From the NCBI GenBank assembly GCA_947589685.1, contig CANQCN010000002.1:1-63693 (forward strand): 63,693 nt of DNA. Direction: 5' to 3'. This document shows, one piece after another, positions 1-58,732 of this stretch. The DNA is from an uncultured Clostridia bacterium. GTDB taxonomy: Bacteria; Bacillota; Clostridia; Christensenellales; CAG-314. A program made the position numbers and the translations under genes. The notes below the pieces were generated by a model. That model was not told where the DNA came from and did not search any database. It worked only from the letters and a program-made list of their open reading frames with translations. The first letter of the stretch is position 1. Each line of letters starts with the position of its first letter.

Positions 1-451
1 CACCAACTTGCCCGCGCTCACGGCGAAGTGTCCACAGGACACGTTCGCTTTTCGTGGCGCGCCCCTCAACTTGTTTTCGCGCAATTGACGGGGAAGGTTA
101 TTATCACAGTAACAGACTTTGTCACTGCGAATAGGGGTGGGTGGTCGGGAGCGAGGGTGTGTTTCAACTCAGTTCCCGCAACTACGGACCTGCGCCGAAG
201 TTGCGGTCCTTGTGGGGGATGCCGGGGCGGGACACTCCCCGGCGAAAGTCTACAACAATTCGCGCAGGTGTCCTGCGCCACCCACAAGTCCGACTGCGGC
301 GGCGCGTAAGCGCATTGGTTTAGGGGATATATAGTATAAAAAGAAATCGACTTTCGCCGAGGAAGTCGATTTTCTAAATGTTGTTTATTTTACCGTCGAT
401 TGCGAATGCGTTGCGCAGCAGCAAGCAATCGACCGCCGCACGTTTGGTCGG
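1..451 (+). repeat. Structured intergenic repeat family (called SIR here), copy 1; candidate ncRNA; 5' end may lie outside the window
   Basis: Shares a helix set with 19291-19850(-) and 21827-22160(+). The helices are CCGCAAC/GTTGCGG (176-182/200-206), CTTGTGGG/CCCACAAG (209-216/281-288), CCGGGG/CCCCGG (222-242), GCGCAGG/CCTGCGC (262-278) and GCGC-GTAA-GCGC (302-313). A 12-bp hairpin plus T run follows (344-376), then GTCGATTGC/GCAATCGAC (395-433) and CGACC/GGTCG (430-450). The 20-mer GCGCAATTGACGGGGAAGGT (79-98) recurs at 48086-48105. ORFs in this region are not conserved between copies. Confidence 0.8.
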
Positions 452-452
452 G

Positions 453-722: not shown

Positions 723-1133
723 TTATGCAACAGGATATGACGCAGGAACTTCAACGGGAGTAATTACCACCGTAACTTGGCTGCCATCTTCCGTTCCAAA
801 ATCTTCAAATGCCTTAAATGCCGTATAATCTGTCGGGGTTCCGGATGCAGCAGCTTCGACGTTTGTCAAATACAAATTACCCTCGGCATCCCAATAACCT
901 TCGGCGACCCAGCACGTATCGCTTGTACCTAACGCCAATTCATTGGGGTGAGTAAGGATCTCCTCTACGGCAAGACCTTTGAGGGAACGAGCATTCGCAT
1001 TGAAAACGCCTTCTCTTGCGTTGTCGAGAGCGACTACGAATACGGGAACCGCAATTGCAACGAGTACCGCGATGATCGCAACGACGATCAACAGCTCGGC
1101 AAGCGTAAAGCCCTTTCTACTTTTTTTCAACAT
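723..1133 (-). CDS. Type IV pilin / pseudopilin with prepilin-type N-terminal cleavage-methylation signal
   Basis: ORF 723..1217 trimmed to the ATG at 1133, which is preceded by GGAG. The N-terminus MLKKSRKGFTLAELLIVVAIIAVLVAIAV is a classic KGFTLxE plus hydrophobic helix signal. No pilB/C/D genes are adjacent. Confidence 0.85.
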   Translation of the reverse strand: MLKKSRKGFTLAELLIVVAIIAVLVAIAVPVFVVALDNAREGVFNANARSLKGLAVEEILTHPNELALGTSDTCWVAEGYWDAEGNLYLTNVEAAASGTPTDYTAFKAFEDFGTEDGSQVTVVITPVEVPASYPVA

Positions 1134-1219
1134 TTTGTATTTCTCCTTATAAATAGTTTTATACATGCCGCCGGGATGATCCGCGGATATGTCGGGGTCG
1201 AGTCGCTTTTGCGACAAAA

Positions 1220-1246
1220 GTACATAGAATATGTTAATCTATGTAC
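1220..1246. promoter_or_regulatory. 27-nt palindrome GTACATAGA-N9-TCTATGTAC (copy 1), upstream of the pilin gene
   Basis: Inverted repeat read directly. An almost identical palindrome sits at 1412-1438. Confidence 0.6.
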
Positions 1247-10819: not shown

Positions 10820-11146
10820 TTACTTTATAAGCAGATCGATAAGCAGCTTGGCATTTTCCCAATCGCGCTTGTTGATAAGGTAACGCGTGCGCCCGTCTTC
10901 CGTTATCGTGTAGTACTTGCGGGTGGCGCCCACGTTTTCTCCCCAATATCCCTTGATGAAGCCTTCGTCCTCCAAACGGTGATAGGCGGAATAAAGACTC
11001 TGCTCGTTGGGTATATAGAGGTTGTTGGTCTTTTTGGCGATATACTTGCGAATCTCGTTTCCGTACTTGGTGCCGTCCATCAGCGCCGACAGTACAAACG
11101 TATCTATATGCCCGCGAAGCAGATCGCTGGAAATTACGTTCTTCAT
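10820..11146 (-). CDS. PadR family transcriptional regulator
   Basis: 108 aa with LRGHIDTFVLSALMDGTKYGNEIRKYI...SLYSAYHRLEDEGFI...RKYYTITEDG, a PadR winged-helix pattern. Confidence 0.85.
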   Translation of the reverse strand: MKNVISSDLLRGHIDTFVLSALMDGTKYGNEIRKYIAKKTNNLYIPNEQSLYSAYHRLEDEGFIKGYWGENVGATRKYYTITEDGRTRYLINKRDWENAKLLIDLLIK

Positions 11147-11393
11147 TTGTTCTCCATACTATGTCTGTAATATAGATTAGCAAAAACAAACAAATTTGTA
11201 AAGTGCAAAAGGGACATTTTTGTAAAAAAAAATATTATTAAAATTTATCGCAAATATGAAACGCGTGAAACATCGCCAAGAGGCGCCGAAATGGCGTTTA
11301 ATTGCACCGTCACCGTGCAGACAACAGCATTGTTGGATAAAAAACGAACAAACAGAGCGACTTTTGAGCCGCTTTTACGATAAGAATTTATCT

Positions 11394-11621
11394 TTACACG
11401 GTAAAAATGTCGTCGTATTCCGCCTTCAAAATTTTCTTTATCAAAATTATTTCGTCGGGGTAAATATGCCGTTGCCCCACTTCCATTTTGGCTATCGCGC
11501 TTCGGGTAATATCGCAGCCGCAAACTTGCAATCTCGCCGCAAGGGCTTCTTGCGTCAATCCCGCATTTTCACGAAGTTGTCTGATATTGTTGCCTATTCT
11601 TTTTTCGATGATTGCGTCCAT
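11394..11621 (-). CDS. XRE family helix-turn-helix transcriptional regulator
   Basis: 75 aa. IGNNIRQLRENAGLTQEALAARLQV...SAIAKMEVGQR is a Cro/C1-type HTH. It is divergent from the low-GC operon at 11729-13328. Confidence 0.85.
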   Translation of the reverse strand: MDAIIEKRIGNNIRQLRENAGLTQEALAARLQVCGCDITRSAIAKMEVGQRHIYPDEIILIKKILKAEYDDIFTV

Positions 11622-11654
11622 AATCTTGTTTGCACTTATTTCAGAACAAAATAC

Positions 11655-11683
11655 TTGACTTAATTATAGACATAACGTATAAT
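11655..11683 (+). promoter_or_regulatory. Promoter TTGACT-N17-TATAAT for the plus-strand low-GC operon
   Basis: TTGACT at 11655-11660 and TATAAT at 11678-11683 with exact 17-nt spacing. Confidence 0.6.
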
Positions 11684-11686
11684 AAG

Positions 11687-11708
11687 TTTGCACCTATATA
11701 GGTGCAAA
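11687..11708. promoter_or_regulatory. Perfect 22-bp palindrome TTTGCACCTATATAGGTGCAAA (candidate operator of the XRE regulator)
   Basis: Begins 4 nt after the -10 box. A half-site-like GTTTGCAC also occurs at about 11629-11636. Confidence 0.55.
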
Positions 11709-11728
11709 TATAATTAAAAGAGGTCAAT

Positions 11729-11896
11729 ATGTCAAAACGAAAAAGACCGTTGCCTATTTTGGGTATCATCTATGCGGCGGTTTTGGGAATACTTGTGACA
11801 GTGATGGTCGTCGGATTTATTCTCATTGCAACAACTACCAAGCCAAAGGAAGAAAATAAGGAGGAGCTAAGCTATGCCGCTTGTCAAATGTCCTAA
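11729..11896 (+). CDS. Small single-pass membrane peptide (55 aa), below the ORF-track length cut-off
   Basis: ATG at 11729 preceded by AAAGAGG. The sequence is MSKRKRPLPILGIIYAAVLGILVTVMVVGFILIATTTKPKEENKEELSYAACQMS. It overlaps the next gene start by 23 nt. Confidence 0.5.
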   Translation: MSKRKRPLPILGIIYAAVLGILVTVMVVGFILIATTTKPKEENKEELSYAACQMS

Positions 11897-12413
11897 TTGC
11901 GGAGAGGACGTCAGCGACAGCGCGGAAATATGCGTTCATTGCAAGTGCAGCTTGAAGCGTGCCGCAAAAAAAGAGAGCAAAAAAAACTTTTCAGACCTGT
12001 CGTCAGCCGAACAATCTCAATACTGTGATGAATTTAACGCACAAAATAAAGAGTGCAATCGAATTTTTTATCAAGCACAAAACAAAAAGATAATCGATAA
12101 CGCCACTTGGCTCACCTCTATTCCTCACGTTGCGGTTTATTTCATATTTGGCTTTTATCTCCGCGACAGGATAGAATTTGAGTCGATCGATCTTGTTTAT
12201 TTTGCGCTGTTTATTCTGCCGTTTTGTTTGTCTTTTGTTATTTATCTGGCAAATTTGATCGCATCTGTCTGCCTAAGAAAAACTTGGCGCAAACGAAAAG
12301 TAATCTATATTGCGGAATTTGACAAATGGCTGCAAGAAAACAAACAAGTAGCGCTGAAATATTCCTTTACAAAACGAGAAAAAATGTTGTATCACAAACT
12401 TTATGTTAAATAG
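11874..12413 (+). CDS. Zinc-ribbon membrane protein (N-terminal CxxC-x13-CxxC, then 2-3 TM helices)
   Basis: Starts MPLVKCPNCGEDVSDSAEICVHCKC, with RBS AGGAGG. Low GC. Confidence 0.7.
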   Translation: MPLVKCPNCGEDVSDSAEICVHCKCSLKRAAKKESKKNFSDLSSAEQSQYCDEFNAQNKECNRIFYQAQNKKIIDNATWLTSIPHVAVYFIFGFYLRDRIEFESIDLVYFALFILPFCLSFVIYLANLIASVCLRKTWRKRKVIYIAEFDKWLQENKQVALKYSFTKREKMLYHKLYVK

Positions 12414-12425
12414 GAGGAAAAAGCA

Positions 12426-13328
12426 ATGGCACTGTTAAAATGCCCTGAATGCGGACACGATATTTCATCCAATGCCAAAGCGTGTCCTAATTGCGGCGCG
12501 GAAATATGTATCTGTCCCGACTGCGGCACGGCATACGTTGGCAAACAAAGAGAATGCGCAAAATGCGGTTATTTGTTTGAGAAAAAAAACGATATTCAAT
12601 CCGAAATCGACGATGCGCAAGACGCGACGTCGGTAAAAGAAAAATGGTTCGCCCGCGCCAACGAGGATAAAAATACCATAAAAAATCTCAAATATTGGGG
12701 ATATGCTATCAAAGTACTTGAAGCTATACCCGTATTAGCTTTTATAATAGTATATATCACATGGACTCGGAAAACTCCGGAAGAACGTTTATTTACTGTC
12801 AACAACGTTATAGACGATATAAAAATTTGCTGTATAGTAAGCAGTATAACTATTGTATTGTTCGGTATATTGGATTTCGTCAAACGTCCTATTGTCGAAA
12901 AGCGCTTTGCAGATTGGCTTTTGCGCAATAAGCTCGACATGACCGATTATATAAAGCAACATTCGGATGAGATCAATACGGATAATGACGAGATCACGGA
13001 CGATATGATGCTTATTGTGCGCGGCAATTATATCGCAAAAAATCCCGACGTAAAAAACAAATTTTACGCTTGGCTCTCGGCAAAAGTTGTGTTGCTGATA
13101 GCGCTGGCAATAATCTCCTATTACTGTTTGTTTGAAAACATAAAAATAATAATTGGGTTTAATATGCTGCAACAGAAGCTTGATTTCGCAAAGCTGGATT
13201 ATGTATTGATAGGAATAAACGTCGCGTTTGTGATTGCAGACGGCGTTTTCGATAGCATTTGGGACAAAAAATGTTCGTCGCCGTTAGCGGAATTCAGGGA
13301 CAAAACTACAAAAGACGAGGAAGAATGA
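12426..13328 (+). CDS. Double zinc-ribbon membrane protein (paralogous N-terminus, about 4 TM helices)
   Basis: Starts MALLKCPECGHDISSNAKACPNCGAEICICPDCGTAYVGKQRECAKCG, with RBS AGGAGG. Very low GC. Confidence 0.7.
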   Translation: MALLKCPECGHDISSNAKACPNCGAEICICPDCGTAYVGKQRECAKCGYLFEKKNDIQSEIDDAQDATSVKEKWFARANEDKNTIKNLKYWGYAIKVLEAIPVLAFIIVYITWTRKTPEERLFTVNNVIDDIKICCIVSSITIVLFGILDFVKRPIVEKRFADWLLRNKLDMTDYIKQHSDEINTDNDEITDDMMLIVRGNYIAKNPDVKNKFYAWLSAKVVLLIALAIISYYCLFENIKIIIGFNMLQQKLDFAKLDYVLIGINVAFVIADGVFDSIWDKKCSSPLAEFRDKTTKDEEE

Positions 13329-19290: not shown

Positions 19291-19850
19291 TATCGCCCGA
19301 CCACACGTGCGGCGGTCGATTGCTTGCTGCTACGCAACGCATGCGCAATCGACGGTCAAGTAAATAACATTTAGAAAATCGACTTCCTCGGCGAAAGTCG
19401 ATTTCTTTTTATACTATATATCCCCTGAACCAATGCGCTTACGCGCCGCCGCAGTCGGACTTGGGAGTTGCGCGTGAACGCACGCGCGGTCGGATAGACC
19501 TTCGCCGGGGAGTGTCCCATATAAGGAAGCGGGGCGCGCTTTTGTTCCACTGCGCCCCGCCGTGGCTGCGGTCAACACCACACTGTGGTGATTGACTTGT
19601 CGCGCCACGCCCTTTACCCCCGCAAGGACAATAGGGTACCCGCACGATTTGAGCTTGCGAAAATTGTGTGGGAGAAGGCGTGCCCGTGTGTCAGCGGAAC
19701 CGAGTACGCAAAGCGCGCTTGGTGCTGACTAACAAGAGGCGCGCCGCGGGCGCATGTCCGTGATTGCGGAGTTTGATTGGAAACTATCCGTTTGACATAA
19801 TCGTATTGGGAGGCACCACGATATTTATTACAAAGCTTTGCTTTTGAAAA
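19291..19850 (-). repeat. SIR copy 2 (expanded form), candidate ncRNA on the minus strand
   Basis: The reverse complement is colinear with 21827-22160, including a 66-nt identical block (19433-19498 = 21955-22020). It carries extra segments at about 19647-19755 and 19517-19620. Hairpin plus U run at 19376-19404. Twin hairpins at 19296-19350 lie 6 nt from the upstream gene's stop codon. Confidence 0.8.
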
Positions 19851-19896: not shown

Positions 19897-21543
19897 CTAT
19901 TCGTCCACATCGGCAAAGCAGCTGCCGCCGATGAATTCTCTCAAAAGAGAGTTGCAAGGCACCCATTTGTCGTCCATATCCTTGAAGTATTTGAGGAACT
20001 TGATGAGGCGATTTGCCGTTATGTAATGGGGGCTGTCCTGCTTGACCTCCTGCAAGGCGGGCAAAGCGTACTTTTTGAGTACGCACAGCTCGTAGGTGAG
20101 CGCCGAATTGTACACATAGTTGCACCCCTCTTGGTAGGGATAGATCCACTTGAATTCTCCGCGACGGACGGACGGCCACATATCAAGCGTGCGCTCGGCG
20201 CTGGCTCCGCGGTATTTTTTGTCGCGCACTATGCGGCGCAGCAAGCGAATGTCCGTGTAGCTTATCGGGTTGTGGTAGTCCAGATTGATCTGAAATTGCG
20301 GCGCAATGTAAATTTTGAATTTCTGGTGCTTGGGTATGAGGTAGCTCAGCCGATCGTTGAGCGCATGAATACCCTCGATGATAATGGGGGTATCCGGTCC
20401 GATCCTGGTCAAAATTCCCTTTTCCGCGCGCCCTTGTTCGAATTGATAATTGGGCAACTCCGTCTCTTCGCCGTTGATGAGCGCCAACATATTTTGGTTG
20501 AACAGCTCCACGTCCAACGCGTCGATATGCTCGAAATCCTGCTGACCGAATTCGTCCACGGGGATCTTGTCGCGCTCCTTGTAGTACATATCCAACGAAA
20601 TGCGCAGGGGAGTTATTCCGCGGGACATCAACTCTATGCGCAGACGATTGCTGAATGTGGTTTTGCCGCTGCTGGACGGTCCCGCAATGCAGATAAGCCT
20701 GATGTTGTCGATGTCGCGCACAATTTGATCGCCCAATTCGTGCAGCATATCGTTGTGCAAGGTCTCGTTCATATTGATGAAATCCACATAGGTGGACTCG
20801 TTTACGTGGTCGTTCATCTTGGAGATGATCTCCGCGTTGCAAATCGTCGCCCAACGGTGAGCGCGTTTGAGTACCTTGCTGAACGTGGGCTCGTCCTTGA
20901 ATTCGGGTATCACGCCGCCCGCTTCGTAACGCGGATATTGCGCGATGGCGTGACCGTCGTAGCAAAACAGCTTGTAGCTGCTTAGATAACCCGTAGACGG
21001 CACCATATAGCCGTACATATAGTTGAGATAGTCTCCGCAACGGTAAAAATGACAGGTCTTTTCGGGACGGTATTGCAAGGCGTCGGCTTTATCCTGCTGA
21101 TCCTGCGCCATAAAGTAATCGTACGCTTCCTCTTTGCTCATGATCGTGCGCTCAAAAGGCAGATCGGCGGCGACAAGTCGGTCGATCTCCGCGATAACGT
21201 CGCCGAGCATTTTGCGGTCGATAGTCAACTTCGGCTCCACCAACGACACCAACAACGCGCGCGAAACCGCATAGCTTATCTTTATTTGATAGGTCGGGTA
21301 CAAGTTGTGGAACGCCATCGCCAACAGATACCTGAACGACGTTTCGTACACCTTGACGCCGTCCGACGAGGTGAGGTCCAACGGTTCCACAACGCTGTCG
21401 AAGCTCAGCTCGTAGGTAAGCTCGCGCAAACGATTGTTGACTTTGGCTGCCATAAAATGCTTTTCGGGGTCGTTTAACAATGCGAGAATGGGCGTTTTTT
21501 CGGCAAGCTCGTACGCTTTGCCGTCGATCGTTACTTTGAACAT
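19897..21543 (-). CDS. Uridine kinase family protein with an N-terminal TGS/ThrRS-like extension (about 548 aa)
   Basis: Trimmed to the ATG at 21543 (RBS AAGGAG). P-loop IAGPSSSGKTT and a uridine/PRK-type kinase C-terminal half. Confidence 0.65.
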   Translation of the reverse strand: MFKVTIDGKAYELAEKTPILALLNDPEKHFMAAKVNNRLRELTYELSFDSVVEPLDLTSSDGVKVYETSFRYLLAMAFHNLYPTYQIKISYAVSRALLVSLVEPKLTIDRKMLGDVIAEIDRLVAADLPFERTIMSKEEAYDYFMAQDQQDKADALQYRPEKTCHFYRCGDYLNYMYGYMVPSTGYLSSYKLFCYDGHAIAQYPRYEAGGVIPEFKDEPTFSKVLKRAHRWATICNAEIISKMNDHVNESTYVDFINMNETLHNDMLHELGDQIVRDIDNIRLICIAGPSSSGKTTFSNRLRIELMSRGITPLRISLDMYYKERDKIPVDEFGQQDFEHIDALDVELFNQNMLALINGEETELPNYQFEQGRAEKGILTRIGPDTPIIIEGIHALNDRLSYLIPKHQKFKIYIAPQFQINLDYHNPISYTDIRLLRRIVRDKKYRGASAERTLDMWPSVRRGEFKWIYPYQEGCNYVYNSALTYELCVLKKYALPALQEVKQDSPHYITANRLIKFLKYFKDMDDKWVPCNSLLREFIGGSCFADVDE

Positions 21544-21826
21544 ATATCTTACTCCTTGATGTGTGATTGCAAAAGTTACCGTTTTTCGCCGCGAGGCAAA
21601 CAGCCTAACGTCTATTTTGCGGCGGATATATAGTATACAATAATTTAATGAAAAATTCAATACCAAAATGAAAATTTATGGAAGAAAAACAGGATAAATT
21701 TTGCGTAGACTATCGCTCCAAAGGACAAGCGGTTAGATATTACAAATAAAATTTGCCGCTTGCGCCCGATACGCGCGTTTGCGCCTGCCGTATTTGTAAC
21801 AAAATTCACCGCAAACGAAAAGGGCT

Positions 21827-22160
21827 TATAATAAATATCCCCAAATAGCGATGGAGGCAAATCGACAGTTTTCAAAAAACTCCGCAATCACGGACACGTG
21901 CCGAGATTGCGGTCCTTGCGGGGGATGCCGGGGTATGCGACTCCCCGGCAAAATTCTATCCGACCGCGCGTGCGTTCACGCGCAACTCCCAAGTCCGACT
22001 GCGGCGGCGCGTAAGCGCATAGGATCAGGGTGTATGCAGTATAAAAAGAAATCGACTTTCGCCGAGAGAGTCGATTTCCTAAATGATGTTTATTTTACCG
22101 TCGATTGCGAATGCGTTGCGTAGCAGCAAGCAATCGACCGCCGCACGTGTGGTCGGTGGG
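21827..22160 (+). repeat. SIR copy 3 (compact form), candidate ncRNA on the plus strand
   Basis: TTCACC-N16-TATAAT (21805-21832) precedes the helices CCGCAATC/GATTGCGG (21882-21912), CCGGGG/CCCCGG, GCGCGTG/CACGCGC (21966-21983) and GCGC-GTAA-GCGC. A 12-bp hairpin plus T run (22049-22080) and twin hairpins (22100-22156) follow. Confidence 0.8.
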
Positions 22161-22240
22161 CTCATTTGGCAAATGTCGGGGGCAAAAAACAATTTCAACT
22201 GCTTTGTTACTGTTCCCCGACATTTGACACAGAGCTAAAA

Positions 22241-23239
22241 TTACTTTGCCAAAGCGACCGCTACCGAACAAGCGACCGTTGCGCCGACCATCGGGTTGTT
22301 GCCCATGCCGATAAGTCCCATCATCTCGACGTGCGCGGGAACAGAGCTGCTGCCCGCAAATTGAGCGTCGCTGTGCATGCGTCCCAAGGTGTCCGTCATG
22401 CCGTAGCTGGCGGGACCCGCGGCAACGTTGTCCGGGTGAAGCGTACGCCCTGTGCCGCCGCCGCTTGCAACAGAGAAATATTTTTTGCCGTTTTCCTGAC
22501 ACCACTTTTTGTAGGTGCCCGCAACGGGGTGCTGGAAACGCGTGGGGTTGGTGGAGTTGCCCGTGATGGACACGTCTACCTTTTCGTAGCGCATAATGGC
22601 AACGCCTTCGTTGACGTCGTCGGCGCCGTAGCAACGCACCTTTGCGCGTTCGCCGTCGGAGAACGCCACCTCGCGAACGATGGCGAGTTCGCCCGTGTAG
22701 TAATCGTACTTGGTCTGCACATAGGTGAAGCCGTTGATACGCGATATGATATACGCCGCGTCCTTGCCCAAGCCGTTGAGGATAACGCGAAGTGGCTTTT
22801 TGCGCGCCTTGTTGGCGTTGCGGGCGATACCGATAGCGCCTTCGGCAGCGGCAAAGGATTCGTGACCGGCAAGGAAAGCAAAGCAATCCGTTTCCTCACG
22901 CAGCAGCATTGCGCCCAGATTGCCGTGTCCCAAGCCGACCTTACGTTGATCGGCGACGCTGCCGGGAATGCAAAATGCCTGCAAGCCGAGACCGATACAT
23001 TCGCTTACTTCCGCGGCGTTGCTTACGCCCTTTTTGAATGCGATCGCACAGCCGAGAGTGTACGCCCAAACGGCGTTTTCAAAAGCGATAGGTTGCACGC
23101 CCTTGACGATCTCCTCTACGTTTACGCCGTGGCTGAGGCACAGTTCGCGCGCCTCTTCGAGATTTTTAAGTCCGTACTTTTTGAGTTCGGAGTTGATCTT
23201 GTCTATTCTTCTTTCATAACCTTCAAACGTTACAGCCAT
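22241..23239 (-). CDS. GGGtGRT family protein (uncharacterised conserved protein)
   Basis: Contains the eponymous SVASGGGTGRTLHPDN motif. ATG at 23239 preceded by AGGAGGAG. Confidence 0.8.
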   Translation of the reverse strand: MAVTFEGYERRIDKINSELKKYGLKNLEEARELCLSHGVNVEEIVKGVQPIAFENAVWAYTLGCAIAFKKGVSNAAEVSECIGLGLQAFCIPGSVADQRKVGLGHGNLGAMLLREETDCFAFLAGHESFAAAEGAIGIARNANKARKKPLRVILNGLGKDAAYIISRINGFTYVQTKYDYYTGELAIVREVAFSDGERAKVRCYGADDVNEGVAIMRYEKVDVSITGNSTNPTRFQHPVAGTYKKWCQENGKKYFSVASGGGTGRTLHPDNVAAGPASYGMTDTLGRMHSDAQFAGSSSVPAHVEMMGLIGMGNNPMVGATVACSVAVALAK

Positions 23240-23252
23240 TGTTCTCTCCTCC

Positions 23253-23945
23253 TTACTCATTGCGGGGCACTATGTATTTGGCGGCGTTTTCAAAACGTCC
23301 GTAGTGTTTCTTTGCCTTGTTGAGCGCCTCGTTGGCGTCCGTACCCTCGGAAATTGCTTTCATCATCACGCCGAGATTGACATATTCGTAGCCGATGATC
23401 TCGTCGCCCTCGTCCAACGCAAGACGCGTTACGTAACCCTCCGCCATTTCCAGATAGCGGGGACCCTTTTTCGCCGTGGAATACATCGTGCCGACCTGAC
23501 TTCTCAAACCCTTGCCGAGATCTTCGAGACCCGCGCCGATGGGCAGTCCGTCGTCGGAAAACGCCGATTGCGTACGTCCGTAGACGATCTGCAAAAACAG
23601 TTCGCGCATAGCAACGTTGATTGCGTCGCAAACAAGGTCGGTGTTCAAAGCTTCGAGAATGGTTTTGCCGGGTAAAATTTCCGCCGCCATGGCTGCGGAA
23701 TGGGTCATTCCCGAACAACCGATCGTTTCGACGAGCGCCTCCTGAATTACGCCGTCCTTTACGTTCAGCGTCAGCTTGCACGTGCCCTGTTGAGGCGCGC
23801 AGCAACCGCAACCGTGCGTAAGACCGTTAATATCCTTGATTTGCGTGGCAGCCACCCATTTGCCCTCTTCGGGAATGGGAGCGGGGCCGTGATTGCAACC
23901 TTTTGCAACGCATTGCATCAATTCTACTTCGTGTGAATATTGCAT
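23253..23945 (-). CDS. NifU N-terminal-like iron-sulfur scaffold-like protein (usual partner of GGGtGRT proteins)
   Basis: Cys-rich (GCGCCAP...TIGCSGMTHSAAMAAE) with a NifU/IscU-like pattern. Immediately upstream of the GGGtGRT gene. Confidence 0.6.
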   Translation of the reverse strand: MQYSHEVELMQCVAKGCNHGPAPIPEEGKWVAATQIKDINGLTHGCGCCAPQQGTCKLTLNVKDGVIQEALVETIGCSGMTHSAAMAAEILPGKTILEALNTDLVCDAINVAMRELFLQIVYGRTQSAFSDDGLPIGAGLEDLGKGLRSQVGTMYSTAKKGPRYLEMAEGYVTRLALDEGDEIIGYEYVNLGVMMKAISEGTDANEALNKAKKHYGRFENAAKYIVPRNE

Positions 23946-24278
23946 AGATCGTATGTCCTCCCAAAATTTTTTACAATAAAATTAGTATATCACAATATGA
24001 TTTTTTGCGCAAGATTTTACAAAAAAATTCGGCGGTATAGGTTTAGTTTATGTCGGCATTAAATTTTACTAATCTATCTCAGCTATACGCGTATATTCGC
24101 GCAAAGGATAGACGCCGTCATGCGCTTCCCCAAACGCCGTTCGGCTCATATCGCCGCACGTTTGCCGCACTACGCCTGCACATATGAGCATATTCGCAAG
24201 CGTTTGTTTTTCCTTTTCGGAGCAAAGCAAACAGCACGTTAGACTCAGTTTCAAACAATGCCCACAACCTTGTTTTAC

Positions 24279-24372
24279 AGGGAGCGAGTGCGTCGCGACT
24301 CAAAATAATCTGCAACGAAGGCACGCAGTGCGCGAAGCAAAGCCGTTTTGCACCGAATACCCGACGCGACCT
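24279..24372 (+). repeat. SIR partial copy (module B only)
   Basis: GGAGCGAG...CAAAATAATCTGCAACGAAGGCACGCAGTGCGCGAAGCAAAGCCGTTTTGCACCGAATACCCGACGCGAC is nearly identical to 48384-48473. Confidence 0.75.
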
Positions 24373-36814: not shown

Positions 36815-39800
36815 CTATTTTGCCGCTTTGGTGATATACAGCGTAAACTTTTCGCCGTTGACGTCCCATTCCTTGGCATAGGTGCCGCAAGACGCGCGTT
36901 CGACGCGGTCGGCAAGCGTTCCGTCGCATATTTCGGCGGAATAACGCTCGAATATGCCGCCGAGATGTTCGTCCGCGGCGTATCCCACCACTATGTGATC
37001 GGTCACGACAAGATCGCTTTCCTTGCGCATTGTTTGAATTTTCGACACTATTTCGCGCACAAGTCCTTCTTCGATGAGCGAATCGGTCAACGTCACGTCC
37101 AATGCCACGGTGTCGCCGTGGTCGGACACGACGGAATAGCCCTCCTTGTTTTTGGAGGATATGAGCAGGTCGCTCTCCGTCACTTCCACCTTGTCGCCGT
37201 CCAGGTCAAACAGATGCTTTCCGCCGTTTTTGACGTGTTCCACCACTTCGCGCGCCTTTGCGCCGAGGTTAGCCAACGTTTCGCGTATCTTGCCCAGCAG
37301 CTTGCCGTACTTGGGACCGAGCGTTTTGAGCTGCGGCTTGATCTCGTAGTCGGCAAACTCGTCGGCGGAATCCACCTTGACGAGTTCCTTGACGTTAAGC
37401 TCGTTTTTGATTATGTCCGCCGCTTCGCCGTCCAGATCGCAATCGGTCGCCACGTACATTCGGGCGAGGGGCTGACGGTTTTTGACGTTGGCGGCGTTGC
37501 GGGCGCTGCGACCCAACACAACGAGGTCCAGCACCTTTTCCATAGCTTTGTTGAGACGAACGTTGATATACTCGTCTCGCGCAACGGGGAAATCGCACAT
37601 ATGAACGCTTCTCGGAGCGTCGTCAAAGCAGTTGGCGGTTATGTTTTGATAGATACTTTCGGTGATGAAGGGCACAAAGGGCGCAGCCGTCTTTACCAAC
37701 GTGTCCAAAACGGTGTACAACGTCATATACGCCGCTTGCTTGTCCGCAGTCCACTCGCTGCCCCAATATCTTTCGCGGCAACGACGCACGTACCAATTGG
37801 ACAGCATATCGGTAAAACGCTCGATGGCGCGGGCGGAATCGGTTATTTCGTACCTTGAAAGCCCCTCGTCCACGGTTTTTACCAATTGATTGACTTCGGA
37901 AAGTATCCACTTGTCCATAAGCGTGAGCTTGCACTCGTCAAGATCGTACTTCGACGGGTCGAAGTCGTCTATATCCGCGTACAGCACGTAAAAAGCGTAG
38001 GTATTCCACAGCGTACCCAAAAACTTGCGCTGCGTTTCGCTGACCGCCTCGTCGTAGTAGCGGCTGGGCAGCCACGGAGCGGACGACGTGTAAAAATACC
38101 ACCGCACCGCGTCGGCGCCCTGTTTGTTGAAGCTGTCCCACGGATCGACGACGTTGCCCTTGTGCTTGCTCATCTTTACGCCGTGTTCGTCGCCCACCAA
38201 ACCAAGCACTATGCAGTTGCGGAAGGGCGCTTTGTGAAACAGCAGCGTGGAAACGGCGATCAGAACATAAAACCAACCGCGGGTCTGGTCGACCGCTTCG
38301 CTGATGAAATCGGCGGGAAAATTGCGCTCGAAAAGCTCTTTGTTTTCAAACGGATAATGGAATTGCGCATAGGGCATACTGCCGCTGTCGAACCAACAGT
38401 CTATCACTTCGGGAGTACGCACAAATTCTCCTCCGCAGTCGCATTTCCAGGTGCATTTGTCGATGAACGGACGGTGCAGCTCGATGTCCTCGCCGCAGCC
38501 GCACTTTTCGGCAAGCTCCTTGCGGCTGCCTATCACATGCAGTTTGCCGCACTTGTTGCATATCCACACGGGCAGGGGCGTACCCCAATAACGGTCGCGG
38601 GAAATGCCCCAATCGATGACGTTTTCCAAAAAGTTTCCCATACGTCCGCTGCCTATCGTGGGCGGGATCCAATTGATGGAATTGTTTACCTTGATCAATT
38701 CGTCCTTGACCGCCGTCATCTTGATGAACCAGGACTTGCGGGCGTAATAGATCAACGGCGTGTCGCAGCGCCAGCAGTGAGGATAGCTGTGTTCGAACAT
38801 AAGCTCCGCTTGCAGCAAGCCGCGGTTTTTGAGGTCGCGCAAAATGAGCTTCTCCGCGTCCTTGCAGAACACGCCCGTAAGCTCGCCGCAGCCCTCGATG
38901 AACTTGCCGTCCTCCCCCACAAGCTGCACAAAAGGCAGATCGTAGCGGCGACCCACGTTGGAGTCGTCCTCGCCGAAAGCGGGCGCGATGTGTACTATGC
39001 CCGTGCCGTCGGTAAGGGTGACGTAGTCGTCGTTTGTGACGTAATAGCAGTCGCGATCGGACACGTCGGCGTAGCCGTACAAAGGCTTGTAGTGTACGCG
39101 CTCGTAGCTGCTGCCCTTTTTGACGTCCACGACGGAGTACGTGCCCTCCTCGAAATGCTTGGAAACAAGCTCCTTGGCGAGAATGTAGCGCGCGCCGTCA
39201 TGCTCGATCGTTGCGTAGTCGAAATCGGCGTTCATACACAGCGCGACGTTGCTGGGCAGCGTCCAGGGCGTGGTCGTCCAGGCAAGAAAATAGGTGCCCG
39301 GCTGCTCCGTCAGCTCGAAACGCGCCACTGCGGACTTTTCCTTTACGTCCTTGTAGCCTTGCGCCACCTCGTGCGAGGACAAAGCCGTGCCGCAGCGGGG
39401 GCAATAGGGAACTATCTTGAAGCCCTTGTACAGCAGACCCTTGTCGTAGATGTTTTTGAGCGCCCACCACTCCGACTCAATGTAGTTGTTGTCGTACGTA
39501 ACGTAGGGGTGTTCCATATCCGCCCAATACGCCACGCGGTCGGACAGCTCCTCCCACTCGCCCTTGTACTTCCAGACGGACTCCTTGCATTTGTTGACGA
39601 ACGGCTCGATGCCGTACTCTTCGATCTGCTTTTTGCCGTTGATGCCCAGCTGTTTTTCCACTTCCAGCTCGACGGGCAGACCGTGAGTGTCCCAACCCGC
39701 TTTGCGCAGCACGTTGTAACCCTTCATCACGCGATAACGGGGAATGAGATCCTTTATCGAACGGGTCAGAACATGCCCGATATGCGGCTTGCCGTTGGCT

Positions 39801-39946
39801 GTGGGGGGACCGTCGTAAAAAGTAAAGCTGCCGTCGCCCTTTGCGGCGGTCTGCTCGAATATTTTGTTGTCTTTCCAAAATTTGAGAATTTGCTTTTCTC
39901 TGTCTACAAAGTTAAGCGAACTGTCTACTTTGGTATATTTGGACAT
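36815..39946 (-). CDS. ileS: Isoleucine--tRNA ligase, type 2
   Basis: 1043 aa with a GPPTANGKPHIGH (HIGH) motif and KMSKHKGN (KMSKS). The N-terminal pattern is of the IleRS2 type. Confidence 0.95.
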   Translation of the reverse strand: MSKYTKVDSSLNFVDREKQILKFWKDNKIFEQTAAKGDGSFTFYDGPPTANGKPHIGHVLTRSIKDLIPRYRVMKGYNVLRKAGWDTHGLPVELEVEKQLGINGKKQIEEYGIEPFVNKCKESVWKYKGEWEELSDRVAYWADMEHPYVTYDNNYIESEWWALKNIYDKGLLYKGFKIVPYCPRCGTALSSHEVAQGYKDVKEKSAVARFELTEQPGTYFLAWTTTPWTLPSNVALCMNADFDYATIEHDGARYILAKELVSKHFEEGTYSVVDVKKGSSYERVHYKPLYGYADVSDRDCYYVTNDDYVTLTDGTGIVHIAPAFGEDDSNVGRRYDLPFVQLVGEDGKFIEGCGELTGVFCKDAEKLILRDLKNRGLLQAELMFEHSYPHCWRCDTPLIYYARKSWFIKMTAVKDELIKVNNSINWIPPTIGSGRMGNFLENVIDWGISRDRYWGTPLPVWICNKCGKLHVIGSRKELAEKCGCGEDIELHRPFIDKCTWKCDCGGEFVRTPEVIDCWFDSGSMPYAQFHYPFENKELFERNFPADFISEAVDQTRGWFYVLIAVSTLLFHKAPFRNCIVLGLVGDEHGVKMSKHKGNVVDPWDSFNKQGADAVRWYFYTSSAPWLPSRYYDEAVSETQRKFLGTLWNTYAFYVLYADIDDFDPSKYDLDECKLTLMDKWILSEVNQLVKTVDEGLSRYEITDSARAIERFTDMLSNWYVRRCRERYWGSEWTADKQAAYMTLYTVLDTLVKTAAPFVPFITESIYQNITANCFDDAPRSVHMCDFPVARDEYINVRLNKAMEKVLDLVVLGRSARNAANVKNRQPLARMYVATDCDLDGEAADIIKNELNVKELVKVDSADEFADYEIKPQLKTLGPKYGKLLGKIRETLANLGAKAREVVEHVKNGGKHLFDLDGDKVEVTESDLLISSKNKEGYSVVSDHGDTVALDVTLTDSLIEEGLVREIVSKIQTMRKESDLVVTDHIVVGYAADEHLGGIFERYSAEICDGTLADRVERASCGTYAKEWDVNGEKFTLYITKAAK

Positions 39947-39990: not shown

Positions 39991-40245
39991 AAAAAAAGCG
40001 GCGCGTCAGAAAAACGCACCGCTGAGCTTGCAACCATTTCCGACGGGTACGGCTGCACAGATGAATATATGTGCAGATTATACCGTGCGCCTTGATAACG
40101 GAGCGCTTGCCGTACTTGCCTACGAAAATTTTCAGCAAGTCTACTTGCGGGGCGATAGCTTTCGGAGCAACCGCGCGCGCCTTTCAGCCGCAGGACGCGC
40201 TCTCTGTGCCGCTTGACATCCGCAGTCTTGTCCCCACTCGAACGT
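39991..40245 (-). promoter_or_regulatory. T-box-like leader with terminator upstream of ileS (tentative AUC specifier)
   Basis: Minus-strand elements include AGAGAG...GGCUGAAAGG (Stem I-like), GAAAGCUAUCG (AUC at 40154-40156), CCGUUA (F-box-like), and the terminator AGCGGUGCGU/ACGCGCCGCU plus U7 (39991-40023). I could not find a canonical T-box 14-mer. Confidence 0.5.
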
Positions 40246-40403
40246 ATTTGATTATTGACTACATTTTAACAAATATTGCGGCGATTTGCAAGCGAATCAG
40301 ACAACTAAAACGCATGCAAAACGTCAAATTGCCACGCAACGGCTTGACCGCCCGTCAAACAAACGGTCGGCGTCTCGTTGTCGCGCAAACAAAGCCGAGA
40401 TTA

Positions 40404-43699: not shown

Positions 43700-43964
43700 A
43701 CTGCGCTAAGCGGGGAGCCGGCGGTGCCCTGTTGCTCACAATCCGCCATAGTGAGGCTGAATGTTGCAGGCGGCTCTCGGCGTGGAAAGCTGGAAACGGC
43801 AAGGAGTGTTGATACCAAGGTCTTGTGCAACGTGACGCTGTCAACCGTGTCAGGATGGGGACATAGCAGCACTAAGCAGTTTGAGCGTGTGCCACGAGGT
43901 AGCTTTGGAGTAGCCACCTACCGCGATACCGTTTCGGCGTCGATTGTCAACTGCAACGCGCAGG
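43700..43964 (+). ncRNA. ffs: Signal recognition particle RNA, long Bacillus-type (with Alu domain); ends approximate
   Basis: TTGCAA...TATAAT (43688-43693) lies upstream. The domain IV core GUGUCAGGAUGGGGACAUAGCAGCACUAAGCAG...GCGUGUGCCACGAGGUAGC parallels GUCAGGUCCGGAAGGAAGCAGC...GCGUGUGCC...UGUAGC. An Alu-like segment GUGAGGCUGAAUGUUGCAGG is present. Terminal pairing is CUGCGC (43701-06) with GCGCAG (43958-63). Confidence 0.8.
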
Positions 43965-47930: not shown

Positions 47931-48029
47931 ACTTTCACCGTTAGCAGTGTTGACAAAAGCGTCGCTCGGAATACAAGGCAAAACAAAAAGGCGTGTCGAA
48001 ACACGCCGAAAAATAAAAAAGTTGATTTC

Positions 48030-48475
48030 TTACACCCCTCTTCCACCACCTATCGGTGGTCCCCCTTCCCCGTAAATTGTGCTTTGCGCAATTGACGGGG
48101 AAGGTCTGTTGTCACTGTTGTTGACTGTGTCTCCGCGAATGGGGGGGGTGGGCGAAGGGGCGTGGCGCGTTAAACCAATCACCACGGTGTGGTGTTGGTA
48201 GCTGCCACGTGAGGGCGCACTTGTCCTTTCCGTGCGCCCGTGTGCCTTATATGGAACGGTGGCTAACGGGGTCCCCGTCAAGTCGACAAAGGAGACTTGA
48301 TGGGGAGAGGAGCAGCCGCCCGACAGCGATACCGCCCGCGCTTATTGGCACGGGCGGTGATGTCAAGGGCGAGCTGCGACGACGGAGCGAGGGTGTTCCA
48401 ACGCAAAATAATCTGCAACGAGGGCACGCAGTGCGCGAAGCGAAGCCGTTTTGCACCGAATACCCGACGCGACTT
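48030..48475 (+). repeat. SIR copy 4 (mosaic/divergent form)
   Basis: Module A spans 48086-48150. A two-hairpin domain follows: CGTGGC/GCCACG (48161/48204), CACCAC/GTGGTG (48180-48194) and GGGCGCAC/GTGCGCCC (48213-48239). This domain is homologous to 19529-19609. Module B (48384-48473) ends 2 nt from the prs stop codon. Confidence 0.8.
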
Positions 48476-54070: not shown

Positions 54071-54178
54071 AAAAAAATCGACCTCGTTGACGGAGGTCGA
54101 TTTTTTTGATAGATGTCGATTGGACATTCGATCGCTTGCGCGTAACGGAGCAATCGACCGACGCACGTGTGGTCGGTA
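54071..54178 (+). repeat. SIR 3' module alone (AAATCGAC hairpin/T7 plus twin hairpins)
   Basis: AAATCGACCTC-GTTGACG-GAGGTCGATTTTTTT (54075-54107) is followed by GTCGATTG...GCAATCGACCGACGCACGTGTGGTCGG. This parallels 344-450, 22049-22156 and 19296-19404(-). Confidence 0.75.
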
Positions 54179-54181
54179 GGA

Positions 54182-55320: not shown

Positions 55321-55339
55321 AAATTGATGGTTTCAAGGC

Positions 55340-58230: not shown

Positions 58231-58585
58231 GCCGACTCGTACATTCGGTGAAAAAGGGCTTCACGACGGGCGCCGTACAAATCAATTTTGTGCGGTGACC
58301 TTTTTTTGTTGATTTTACGGCGCGCGGGTATTCCGCGCAAAAAGGCTTCGCTTCGGGCGTCGCACATTTTAGTCAAACACAAATAGACTTGTGCGCCACC
58401 CTCGTTGCAGATTATTTTGCGTTGGAACACCCTTGCGCCTTGTGTATTGGGTCAATCAAAAGCAATATTTTTTATCAAAAAGCTTTATTTGTGCGGCACC
58501 CTTGTTGCAGATTATTTTTCATCGAATACTCTCACTTGGGTGTCACAAGGTCCCCGACCGCCCACCCCTATTCGCAGATATGAAG
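58231..58585 (-). repeat. SIR copy 5 (module A fragment plus tandemly duplicated module B), minus strand
   Basis: The reverse complement carries GCGAATAGGGGTGGG (58561-58575, identical to 127-141). It also has two AAATAATCTGCAAC boxes exactly 100 nt apart (58399-58419 and 58499-58519). Two GAAGCCNTTTTNCNCNGAAT submodules lie at 58235-58265 and 58320-58350. Confidence 0.75.
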
Positions 58586-58732
58586 TATGCAACTGAAAAA
58601 AATTATTTCGAGTATATGATCGACCTTTATATAGAGCTTTTTTATGCACTTTTGCCGCAAGCGACGTTAAAAGTCAAGACTTTGCACCACTTTGCCAATA
58701 TGCACATATGAGCAAGTGCGATATGTTCAAAT

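What the first reader, a model, noticed from the sequence alone, without database searches (positions are those of the whole stretch)
21827..22160. Compact member of a multi-copy, hairpin-dense intergenic element with promoter-like and terminator-like ends (candidate new ncRNA family)
About 330 nt of non-coding sequence recurs at 1-451(+), 19291-19850(-), 48030-48475(+) and 58231-58585(-), with fragments at 24279-24372 and 54071-54178. In this compact copy, TTCACC-N16-TATAAT (21805-21832) comes first. A series of helices follows: CCGCAATC/GATTGCGG, a long-range CTTG(C)GGGG/CTCCCAAG pairing, CCGGGG/CCCCGG, GCGCGTG/CACGCGC, and a GCGC-GUAA-GCGC GNRA hairpin. A 12-bp hairpin plus U run (22049-22080) ends the series. 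The -10 region (TATAATAAATATC) is itself part of the repeat; copy 2 has TGTAATAAATATC. Several helices contain G-U pairs that would become C-A mismatches on the other strand. Examples are UUUC/GAGA here against UUUC/GGAA in copy 1, and the wobble in CTTGCGGGG/CTCCCAAG. This argues for function as RNA transcribed from the strand given. No conserved ORF exists, because reading frames differ between copies. I cannot match it from memory to RNase P, tmRNA, SRP, 6S, a T-box, common riboswitches or self-cleaving ribozyme cores.
Basis: partly seen in the sequence, partly recalled or inferred. Interest (0 to 1): 0.8.

Follow-up and report, generated by a model that had tools for sequence, protein, structure and literature searches.

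The report
Mosaic hairpin repeats behind stop codons
This is a real, uncatalogued family of modular, hairpin-rich DNA repeats that sit just behind the stop codons of ordinary genes in a few rabbit-gut Clostridia and carry a two-way terminator-like hairpin, so it looks more like the BOX, SPRITE and BIME repeats of other bacteria than like a stand-alone RNA gene.

Summary
The repeat is real. Window 21812-22156 is a compact P-B-C-T unit of a modular family. True copies lie at 163-452 (+) and, disrupted, at 19296-19850 (-), with a solo 3' module at 54071-54177.

Hairpins P1, P3, P4, P7 and P8 keep pairing through compensatory changes. No Rfam family, plasmid or phage matches.

The stand-alone ncRNA reading is weak:
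- Both strands fold equally well.
- The terminator hairpin has the better U-tail on the opposite strand.
- No -35 box is conserved.
- Copies are 90% alike within a genome but 72% between genomes.
- Orthologous sites differ in which modules they hold.

In 31 of 33 arrays the 3' end faces the stop codon of a convergent gene. 17 of 24 terminal T ends lie within 31 nt of that stop, against 5% by chance.

Best reading: a new family of interspersed mosaic repeats that gives neighbouring genes structured 3' ends and terminators. How it spreads, and which strand matters, remain unknown.

The parts
21805..21832 (+). Promoter-like hexamers TTCACC-N16-TATAAT. Only the -10-like box (21827-21832) lies inside the repeated sequence.
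   Evidence: 10 of 12 consensus matches; 9 P-module copies share T[A/G]TAATAAAT but nothing upstream of it.
21812..21881 (+). Module P: the -10-like box plus a roughly 60-nt leader ending in AGTTTTCAAAAAACT.
   Evidence: It recurs at 19846-19770 (-) and in L007, L014, L020, L030, L032, L038 and L040.
21869..22007 (+). Modules B and C1: three hairpins, P1 (21882-21889/21905-21912), P3 (21927-21933/21943-21949) and P4 (21966-21972/21977-21983). A possible long-range pairing joins CTTGCGGGG (21915-21923) to CTCCCAAG (21986-21993).
   Evidence: Covariance model R1 scores 129 bits here. Covariation is shown. The long-range pairing is kept only in some subfamilies.
21993..22011 (+). Invariant 19-mer GTCCGACTGCGGCGGCGCG, identical in 12 of the 13 aligned B-C-T copies (one has G>C at its third base); its core CGACTGCGGCGGCGCG is invariant in all 24 C2-T copies. 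It overlaps the 5' arm of the GCGC-GNNA-GCGC hairpin (22007-22018).
   Evidence: invariant columns. RNAalifold pairs it with the 3' end motif, but there is no covariation because both sides never vary.
22049..22077 (.). P7: a 12-13 bp hairpin flanked by an A-run (5') and a short T-run (3'), giving a bidirectional terminator-like site that is stronger on the - strand.
   Evidence: Compensatory U-A to C-G change appears.
22100..22138 (+). P8 hairpin GTCGATTGC...GCAATCGAC.
   Evidence: An A-U to C-G compensatory change occurs in 4 of 13 copies.
22135..22156 (+). Invariant 3' end motif CGACCGCCGCACGTGTGGTCGG, a sharp repeat boundary. It is an interrupted inverted repeat of CCGAC-TGCGGCGG at 21995-22007.
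22170..22226 (+). Module Z: a 12-bp hairpin CAAATGTCGGGG/CCCCGACATTTG lying between the T end and the GGGtGRT gene stop (22241).
   Evidence: The same module follows T in L014, L020 and L032.
62..452 (+). Copy 1: module A (62-156) followed by B-C-T (163-452).
   Evidence: R1 scores 133 bits at 163-302.
19296..19850 (-). Copy 2: P-B-C-T with module X inserted in P1 (19640-19760) and module D in the P3 loop (19514-19620). Its end lies 7 nt from the stop of the convergent FTCD_C gene.
   Evidence: R1 scores only 60.7 bits.
54071..54177 (+). Solo T module. Its end lies 5 nt from the stop codon of rplL, the last gene of the secE-nusG-rplKAJL cluster on the - strand.
   Evidence: The orthologous site in L020 holds a full P-B-C-T-Z element.
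48068..48473 (+). A-D-X-E array. It has no sequence in common with 21812-22156. It ends 2 nt from the stop of the convergent prs gene.
58231..58629 (-). A-E1-(E1-hairpin-E2)-E2 array that abuts the stop codon of the convergent cdd gene. It contains a hairpin plus A-run that reads as a terminator on the cdd strand.
24277..24370 (+). Solo E module, 91% identical to 48384-48473. It lies 36 nt from the stop of a convergent phosphoesterase gene.

Best explanation
The region is one compact member (P-B-C-T-Z) of a lineage-restricted family of interspersed mosaic repeats, of the same kind as pneumococcal BOX and SPRITE and enterobacterial REP/BIME.

The family is built from roughly 40-120-nt palindrome-rich modules (P, A, B, C, D, E, T, X, Z). 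These are strung together head to tail in varying combinations. The arrays sit immediately 3' of genes. The T-type or E-type end lies a few nucleotides from the stop codon of a gene that reads towards the array.

Inferred working:
It acquires a strongly structured 3' UTR and stops at the P7 hairpin plus U-tract, or at an A-run hairpin in E arrays.
- When a second gene converges from the other side, its transcript ends at the same two-way hairpin.
- The hairpins and the two invariant motifs (CCGAC..TGCGGCGG in inverted orientation on either side of P7) are kept by selection. That selection acts either for propagation of the repeat or for binding of an unidentified factor.
- Copies spread or are homogenised within each genome by an unknown route, either transposition in trans or recombination and gene conversion.

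Shown here: repetition, modularity, covariation, position and orientation bias, site turnover, clustering of copies by genome, and the asymmetry of the terminator-like hairpin's tails. Inferred: actual termination, mRNA stabilisation, and mobility.
For: - Mosaic architecture is seen in the window and in 28 loci from six rabbit-gut Clostridia MAG species. Modules are co-oriented, except X, which occurs in both orientations and at three different positions.
- In tandem units the T end is followed directly by the B start.
- Position rule: in 31 of 33 arrays the downstream gene is convergent. 17 of 24 terminal T ends lie within 31 nt of a convergent ORF's stop, against 5.4% for random positions. 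E-type ends lie 0-2 nt from the cdd and prs stops. In L027 two arrays sit back to back, each facing its own gene.
- Terminator: the scan criterion is met on the gene's strand only. There are 8.4 A in the 12 nt upstream of the core stem against 6.0 T in the 12 nt downstream, with the A count higher in 22 of 24 copies. The solo T module is the only hairpin-plus-U site seen in the 156-nt spacer behind the rplKAJL cluster.
- Site turnover: the kinase/FTCD_C spacer is 607 nt here but 186, 134 and 85 nt without the element in L001, L005 and L055. The rplL and cdd sites hold different modules in different species.
- Copies are 90% identical within genomes and 72% between genomes, while flanking coding DNA is mostly 80-86% identical.
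- Degenerate members exist, such as copy 2.
- No Rfam, plasmid or phage match was found.
- The same traits are documented for BOX, SPRITE and RUP: modularity, insertion into one another, a narrow host range, enrichment between convergent genes, and closeness of SPRITE to 3' ends of genes (PMC3049150). REP/BIME share several of them (PMC3184786).
Against: - No terminal inverted repeat spanning the whole element, no target-site duplication, no clean empty/filled site pair and no transposase or RAYT were found. Mobility is therefore inferred, not shown.
- Two 19-22-nt motifs that hardly vary across species, single-pair compensatory changes and a conserved -10-like box point to more specific constraints than a passive repeat needs.
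- No transcript data are available, so termination and 3'-UTR roles are untested.
- Hints on the functional strand conflict. U-tails and the A-C cells in E stem b favour the other.
- Copy 1 is an exception to the stop-codon rule.
Confidence: 0.6

Rival explanations
1. A stand-alone multi-copy structured sRNA gene. Transcription would start just after the TATAAT box, run through P1-P5 on the given strand and stop at the P7 hairpin, giving a trans-acting RNA of about 250-270 nt.
For: - A -10-like box and a roughly 60-nt leader are conserved in 8 of 9 P modules across at least 3 species.
- Three hairpins show covariation.
- An invariant 19-mer could be a seed or a protein site.
- There is a slight excess of G-U over A-C in the sense consensus fold, 55 against 10.
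- L005 has a short unit with a -10-like box (TGTGATATAGT), a partial P1 and a terminator hairpin.
Against: - No -35 is conserved, and homology begins about 5 nt before the -10 box.
- Many B units have no P module and are preceded by A, E or T modules.
- P1 is destroyed in copy 2.
- The sense U-tail is short and fails the scan.
- Both strands fold equally well.
- The repeat continues about 80 nt past the 'terminator' to an invariant end motif.
- There is no syntenic conservation, and copies cluster by genome.
Confidence: 0.15
2. A cis-antisense device. The structured array would be transcribed on the reader's strand and run across its sharp 3' end into the convergent gene. The RNA would then be a structured handle fused to an antisense tail against that gene's 3' end.
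For: - The sharp 3' boundary lies 0-31 nt from the convergent stop codon.
- E-type ends have no sense-strand terminator before the gene.
- An invariant G-U in E stem c is present in 10 of 10 units, including the 44.6% G+C relative L054.
Against: - T-type arrays carry a hairpin with at least a weak sense U-tail about 80 nt before the end.
- No promoter is established.
- Ten A-C cells in E stem b would be G-U on the other strand.
- The neighbouring genes are unrelated housekeeping genes with no common theme.
Confidence: 0.1
3. A non-autonomous remnant or guide-RNA scaffold of a transposon (TnpB or IscB omega-RNA, IS110 bridge RNA, an IS200/IS605-type palindrome element, or REP with its RAYT). 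The protein partner would lie elsewhere in the genome.
For: - A sharp 3' end is followed by unrelated flank, as in omega-RNA scaffolds.
- Hairpins sit near the end.
- An interrupted inverted repeat (CCGAC-TGCGGCGG / CCGCCGCA-N6-GTCGG) bounds the roughly 165-nt C2-T unit.
- In L003 that unit occurs alone, starting 3-4 nt after a co-oriented gene's stop codon.
- Tandem head-to-tail units occur.
Against: - No match to HEARO, IS605-orfB or any other Rfam RNA. The only such hit is 21.6 bits at 1219-1331, outside the repeat.
- No transposase, TnpB or reverse transcriptase among the window genes scanned.
- No recurrent protein family next to arrays in about 300 kb of loci.
- Orientation follows the neighbouring gene. 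Both orientations occur within this one 64-kb window, whereas from general knowledge IS200/IS605 elements follow the replication direction.
- No plasmid or phage match.
Confidence: 0.07
4. Chance similarity of G+C-rich terminator hairpins, with no real family.
For: None beyond the general abundance of hairpins in intergenic DNA.
Against: - 217-276-nt matches at 84-92% identity.
- 28 loci recovered with one 23-nt motif.
- Covariance-model hits of 122-154 bits.
Confidence: 0.01

Closest known systems
BOX elements of Streptococcus pneumoniae and S. suis (boxA-boxB(n)-boxC; boxD, E and F in S. suis)
   Same: - Modular, variable-length arrays (67-637 bp in BOX, about 90-900 bp here).
- Strongly folded if transcribed.
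- Optional modules can be added without disturbing the rest.
- Hosts form a narrow clade.
- Elements insert into or next to one another.
- No gene of their own (PMC3049150).
   Different: I saw no sequence relationship, but I made no direct comparison with BOX sequences. The present modules are G+C-rich. BOX has terminal inverted repeats and target duplications, which I could not show here. The orientation bias towards the convergent gene's stop codon is much stronger here (31 of 33 arrays).
[quoted passage not shown]
   Same: It is a repeat whose core is a terminator-like stem plus U-rich tract. It lies close to the 3' ends of genes, is strongly enriched between convergent genes, and has been proposed to be co-opted as a terminator (PMC3049150). 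Module T behaves in the same way.
   Different: SPRITE is a single AT-rich unit of about 105 nt. T is embedded in a multi-hairpin unit with invariant flanking motifs and is linked to modules B and C.
REP / BIME (bacterial interspersed mosaic elements) of enterobacteria and pseudomonads
   Same: - G+C-rich palindromes combined in mosaics.
- Located after genes, with a bias for convergent gene pairs.
- Known effects on mRNA stability and transcription attenuation (PMC3184786, PMC3049150).
   Different: From general knowledge, REPs are 20-40-nt units that alternate in orientation and are tied to RAYT transposases. Here the modules are longer, are co-oriented, differ in sequence from one another, and no RAYT has been seen.
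Correia elements (CREE) of Neisseria
   Same: Small non-coding repeats that bring promoter-like boxes, and that are cleaved by RNase III when transcribed (PMC3049150, PMC3184786). That Correia elements also act as terminators is general knowledge.
   Different: Correia elements have 26-bp terminal inverted repeats and TA target duplications and are about 100-155 bp, not mosaics. Many lie on the 5' side of genes.
Ordinary bidirectional intrinsic terminators between convergent genes
   Same: The P7 hairpin has an A-run on one side and a T-run on the other. The related genome L001 has just such a hairpin, with the same AAATCGAC/GTCGATTT arms, at the orthologous site.
   Different: Here the hairpin is part of a 290-nt repeated unit found at many unrelated sites.

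Membership tests
Any Rfam 15 RNA family (including HEARO, IS605-orfB, 6S, riboswitches, ribozymes, group II introns) | Covariance-model score at or above the family's gathering score | tested here: not met
   There is no hit inside any repeat copy even at E <= 10, apart from miRNA and greA-leader noise of 15-20 bits.
Intrinsic (Rho-independent) terminator | G+C-rich stem-loop followed directly by a U-tract | tested here: met
The A-run is richer than the T-run in 22 of 24 copies.
Stand-alone sRNA gene | Conserved promoter (-35 and -10) at a fixed distance from the RNA's start | tested here: inconclusive
   A -10-like T[A/G]TAAT is conserved in 8 of 9 P modules. No -35 is conserved, and many B units lack P.
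Stand-alone sRNA gene | Strand-specific structure (G-U tolerated, A-C avoided; sense folds better than antisense) | tested here: not met
   Energies and z-scores are equal on both strands, and the covarying stems are almost all Watson-Crick.
Stand-alone sRNA gene | Conservation at syntenic loci across species | tested here: not met
   Searches show module content or presence differing at the kinase/FTCD_C, rplL and cdd sites. Copies cluster by genome.
MITE (miniature inverted-repeat transposable element) | Terminal inverted repeats | tested here: inconclusive
   The whole P-B-C-T unit has none. The roughly 165-nt C2-T sub-unit is bounded by an interrupted inverted repeat, CCGAC-TGCGGCGG / CCGCCGCA-N6-GTCGG.
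MITE | Target-site duplication, and matched empty and filled sites | tested here: inconclusive
   Related genomes are only about 80-86% identical in DNA. Sites without the element exist, but the junctions cannot be aligned and no duplication was seen.
MITE / non-autonomous element | A related autonomous element that encodes the transposase | tested here: not met
   There is none among the window genes scanned and no recurrent protein in about 300 kb of loci. Whole genomes could not be scanned.
REP / BIME | 20-40-nt REP palindromes in alternating orientation, with an associated RAYT gene | tested here: not met
   Modules are 40-120 nt and co-oriented. No RAYT was seen, although its absence from the whole genome could not be tested.
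REP / BIME, SPRITE (as a kind) | Location 3' of genes, enriched between convergent genes | tested here: met
   The downstream gene is convergent in 31 of 33 arrays. The upstream gene is co-oriented in 17 of 27 arrays.
BOX (as a kind) | Modular arrays with optional or repeated internal modules | tested here: met
   Observed orders include P-B-C-T, A-B-C-T, A-E-B-X-C-T, P-B-X-C-T-A-E-E, and tandem B-C-T.
BOX / SPRITE / Correia (as homologous families) | Sequence similarity to the published consensus | not tested
Base composition and host make homology unlikely.
TnpB / IscB omega-RNA | Adjacency to, or overlap with, a tnpB or iscB gene in at least some copies | tested here: not met
IS200/IS605-type palindrome-associated elements | Orientation tied to the replication direction (feature taken from general knowledge) | tested here: not met
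   Both orientations occur within this one 64-kb window, and orientation tracks the neighbouring gene.

The most novel reading that the evidence does not exclude
The modules may be more than parasitic palindromes. They could be a mobile '3'-end cassette' system in which structured RNA units are recognised by a dedicated, still unidentified protein.

The candidate units are:
- The roughly 290-nt B-C-T unit. It has a multi-hairpin junction closed by two invariant motifs placed symmetrically around a two-way terminator.
- The roughly 90-120-nt E unit. It has two nearly invariant internal-loop strands (AAUCUGCAAC and GAAGYGAAGCC) and an invariant G-U. It is also present in a 44.6% G+C relative.

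On this reading the cassettes are placed or retained within a few nucleotides of stop codons. They would then control termination, 3'-end stability or antisense transcription of housekeeping genes genome-wide.
Probability: 0.15. Interest if true: 0.7.

Novelty: new member of a known kind. Interest (0 to 1): 0.35.

Why it matters
If the reading is right, a sizeable share of the intergenic DNA in this uncultured gut Clostridia lineage is made of one repeat system: seven arrays in 64 kb. That system supplies the 3' UTRs and terminators of core genes such as rplL, prs, cdd and a nucleoside kinase.

This matters for annotation. These regions should not be called sRNA genes or promoters by default.

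It matters for assembly and binning of metagenome-assembled genomes. Several contigs and loci in the related MAGs begin or end inside or next to an array, which suggests that the repeats may break contigs.

It also offers a natural example of terminators and structured 3' ends spreading as repeats. The strict stop-codon-proximal, orientation-specific placement and the two invariant motifs are concrete handles for finding the factor that recognises or moves them.

Tried and rejected
- Rfam at gathering and permissive thresholds found nothing in any copy.
- Plasmid and phage BLAST found no match.
- The metagenome scan with a two-block motif gave only G+C-rich chance hits. Two viral-contig scans gave none.
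- An exact-protein look-up for the window's own genome was not on record. I therefore found no relative closer than about 83% DNA identity (95% protein identity for the kinase), and no clean empty/filled site comparison was possible.
- I searched ORFs of all loci for a protein that travels with the repeats and found none.
- Pfam annotation of about 50 window genes looked for a transposase, TnpB, reverse transcriptase or RAYT and found none.
- The strand-of-function tests (energies, wobble counts) were inconclusive. Some of my regex-based module extractions (P1, P4) were too loose, and I discarded them.
- I considered a group II intron, an integron attC site, a type I toxin-antitoxin and a retron. 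I rejected them for lack of Rfam hits, of a cassette context, of a conserved small ORF and of a reverse transcriptase gene. The small-ORF check was by eye only.
The CANQYT copies replace it with CUCCCC/GGGGAG alternatives.
- Covariance model R1 found no B-C1 unit in four more distant relatives.
Full report
1. IS IT THERE?

The region 21.8-22.2 kb lies between two minus-strand genes. One is a nucleoside kinase (19897-21543) and the other a GGGtGRT-family protein (22241-23260).

Self-comparison confirms a repeat:
- 21882-22156 matches 176-451 at 84% over 276 nt.
- 21940-22156 matches 19513-19297 in inverted orientation at 92% over 217 nt.
- 21812-21902 matches 19846-19749 at 71%.
- 22045-22167 matches 54071-54187 at 72%.

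However, 48030-48475, 58231-58585 and 24279-24372 share nothing with 21800-22240. They connect to the family only through other modules: A is shared with copy 1, D with copy 2, and E among themselves. The true right edge is 22156. A further repeated hairpin (Z, 22170-22226) follows it.

2. ANATOMY

I split the family into modules.
- P: a -10-like box plus a leader of about 60 nt.
- B: hairpins P1 and P3.
- C: hairpin P4, the invariant GTCCGACTGCGGCGGCGCG, and a GCGC-GNNA-GCGC hairpin.
- T: hairpin P7 flanked by A- and T-runs, hairpin P8, and the invariant end CGACCGCCGCAC..TGGTCGG.
- A, D, E, X and Z.

The 292-nt core folds at -126 kcal/mol, z = -5.3.

A 13-copy alignment gives 96.5% paired cells and 12 pairs with changes on both sides. 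A model-fitted alignment of 14 B-C1 units gives 11 of 27 such pairs. Its covariation score is 0.299 against 0.096 in shuffles and at most 0.105 for slid partners.

Examples of the covariation:
- P1: CGCAAUC/GAUUGCG, CGCAACU/AGUUGCG, CGCAAAG/CUUUGCG and CGCAAAC/GUUUGCG.
- P3: GCC/GGC, GGC/GCC, GGU/ACC and GUC/GAC.
- P4: five different stems.

Part of this covariation is whole-hairpin swapping between subfamilies. Single-pair compensations also occur in P4, P7 and P8. RNAalifold also pairs the two invariant motifs across P7 and P8, but they never vary, so this pairing is untested.

3. RELATIVES

The 23-nt motif CGACTGCGGCGGCGCGNNAGCGC hits 35 stretches among the species representatives of GTDB. 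Of these, 28 are in six uncultured rabbit-gut ('Lapin') Clostridia MAGs, with 14 and 10 in two of them. The other 7 are chance hits in G+C-rich genomes.

JGI metagenome contigs gave only chance hits, and viral contigs, plasmids and phages gave nothing. Model R1 finds 14 full units (122-154 bits) and about 20 partial or interrupted ones in the held loci. It finds none in four more distant relatives. One of those relatives (L054, 44.6% G+C) does carry an E unit.

In these loci the modules occur in many orders: A-E-X-E-B-X-C-T, P-B-X-C-T-A-E-E, tandem B-C-T, and others. They are always co-oriented except X, which is found in both orientations and at three different positions inside B and C.

4. 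STRAND, PROMOTER AND TERMINATOR

Over 13 copies, mean folding energy is -118.8 kcal/mol on the given strand and -117.4 on the opposite strand. The z-score is -5.3 on both. Consensus folds of both strands have similar energies. The covarying stems contain almost no wobble pairs.

The promoter-like site at 21805-21832 is real as a pattern. Among nine P modules, however, homology starts about 5 nt before the -10-like hexamer and nothing is conserved at -35. Many B units have no P module at all.

The P7 hairpin passes the terminator scan only on the opposite strand, in both copy 3 and copy 2. The A-run before it is richer than the T-run after it in 22 of 24 copies. In E arrays, the outer hairpin of the two double arrays I examined in detail (window 58231-58629 and L014) is preceded by an A-run, so it is a terminator only on the other strand.

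5. CONTEXT

The window is ordinary chromosome. It carries dnaK-grpE-hrcA, ileS, obg, spoIIGA and a sporulation-type sigma factor gene next to it, secE-nusG-rplKAJL, prs, cdd and SRP RNA. No transposase, TnpB or reverse transcriptase is present among the genes scanned.

The strongest regularity is positional. In 31 of 33 arrays with a callable neighbour, the gene beyond the array's 3' end is convergent. 17 of 24 terminal T ends lie within 31 nt of that gene's stop codon, against 5.4% for random positions. Three more have only module Z in between.

E-type ends lie 0-2 nt from the cdd and prs stops. The solo T module lies 5 nt behind rplL. In L027 two arrays lie back to back between convergent genes, each facing its own gene. 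In L003 a bare C2-T unit lies the other way round and starts 3-4 nt after a co-oriented gene's stop. This fits the near-symmetry of that unit, which carries CCGAC..TGCGGCGG in inverted orientation at both ends.

6. TURNOVER

The kinase/FTCD_C spacer is 607 nt here and holds copy 2. It is 186, 134 and 85 nt in three relatives. One of them keeps only a hairpin with the same AAATCGAC/GTCGATTT arms.

The rplL site has T alone here but P-B-C-T-Z in L020. The cdd site has A-E-E here but B-C-T in L027.

Copies are 90% identical within a genome and 72% between genomes, although flanking coding DNA is mostly 80-86% identical. Copy 2 has lost the 3' arm of P1 to an X insertion and carries D inside the P3 loop. 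It scores 60.7 bits against 129-133 for copies 1 and 3.

7. INTERPRETATION

These traits are those of small interspersed mosaic repeats: modules, insertions of one module inside another, a narrow host range, homogenisation within each genome, placement after genes and between convergent genes, and a terminator-like core.

Pneumococcal BOX elements are modular and 67-637 bp long. SPRITE is terminator-like, lies close to 3' ends of genes, is strongly enriched between convergent genes, and has been proposed to be co-opted as a terminator (PMC3049150). REP/BIME are mosaic palindromes that affect mRNA stability and show a bias towards convergent genes (PMC3184786). These are the closest analogues.

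I therefore read 21812-22226 as a compact member of a new family of this kind. Its most likely role is to provide the structured 3' UTR and the two-way terminator for the adjoining genes.

Mobility is inferred only. I found no terminal repeats for the whole unit, no target duplication and no transposase. The strand on which the structures matter is unresolved.

8. WHAT KEEPS IT INTERESTING

- Two motifs hardly vary across species.
- Real compensatory changes occur.
- The placement rule is unusually strict.
- The E unit has three covarying stems (9 of 28 pairs with changes on both sides, covariation score 0.173 against 0.097 in shuffles). It also has nearly invariant internal-loop strands and an invariant G-U in 10 of 10 units, including a relative of lower G+C content.

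These features leave room, which I put at about 15%, for a dedicated RNA-protein or mobile-cassette system rather than a passive repeat.

9. VERDICT

The ncRNA-gene interpretation is only partly supported. This is a new family within a known kind, of moderate interest.

Noticed in passing
window 1217-1246 and 1412-1441: A 30-nt inverted repeat, 97% complementary, flanks a 165-nt segment directly upstream of a pilin-like gene (723-1217, minus strand, N-terminal methylation motif). It looks like a candidate invertible promoter switch.
   Followed up: no
window 39995-40251 (-): A T-box-leader-like match lies upstream of the isoleucyl-tRNA synthetase gene (36815-39946). It scores 40.7 bits, E = 1.4e-5, which is below Rfam's gathering score of 93.
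   Followed up: no
window 55194-55321 (-): A ribosomal protein L10 leader match at 42.7 bits, just under the gathering score of 44. It sits in the expected place upstream of rplJ-rplL.
   Followed up: partly
window 43701-43963 (+): Bacterial large SRP RNA at 144.5 bits. It is the only Rfam family in the window that reaches its gathering score.
   Followed up: no
window about 11000-13300: An island of low G+C content (38-40% against about 52-56% elsewhere). It holds an unknown 179-aa ORF and a 300-aa protein with an N-terminal zinc ribbon, and may be foreign DNA.
   Followed up: no
window 58790-63679 (-): A 1629-aa ORF with no Pfam domain, immediately upstream of and co-oriented with the A-E-E array at 58231-58629. 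Part of the gene also aligns to the syntenic locus L020 at about 80% DNA identity, so it is not specific to the repeat.
   Followed up: partly
window 48387-48475, 24284-24372, 58316-58436 (-); L054 6859-6973: Module E looks like a self-contained structured unit. It has two coaxial stems closing nearly invariant loop strands (AAUCUGCAAC and GAAGYGAAGCC), a variable hairpin, and an invariant G-U in 10 of 10 units. It is also present next to a Peptidase_M29 gene stop codon in a 44.6% G+C relative, and has no Rfam match.
   Followed up: partly
window 19640-19760 (-) and 48258-48383 (+); L006, L014: Module X (about 115 nt) is the only module found in both orientations. It is inserted at three different positions within B and C. 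It behaves like an independent small insertion element nested in the other repeats.
   Followed up: partly
window 47990-48015: A canonical hairpin plus T-run on the minus strand sits about 480 nt after the prs stop codon. If no earlier site terminates, the whole A-D-X-E array would be transcribed as a long prs 3' UTR.
   Followed up: no
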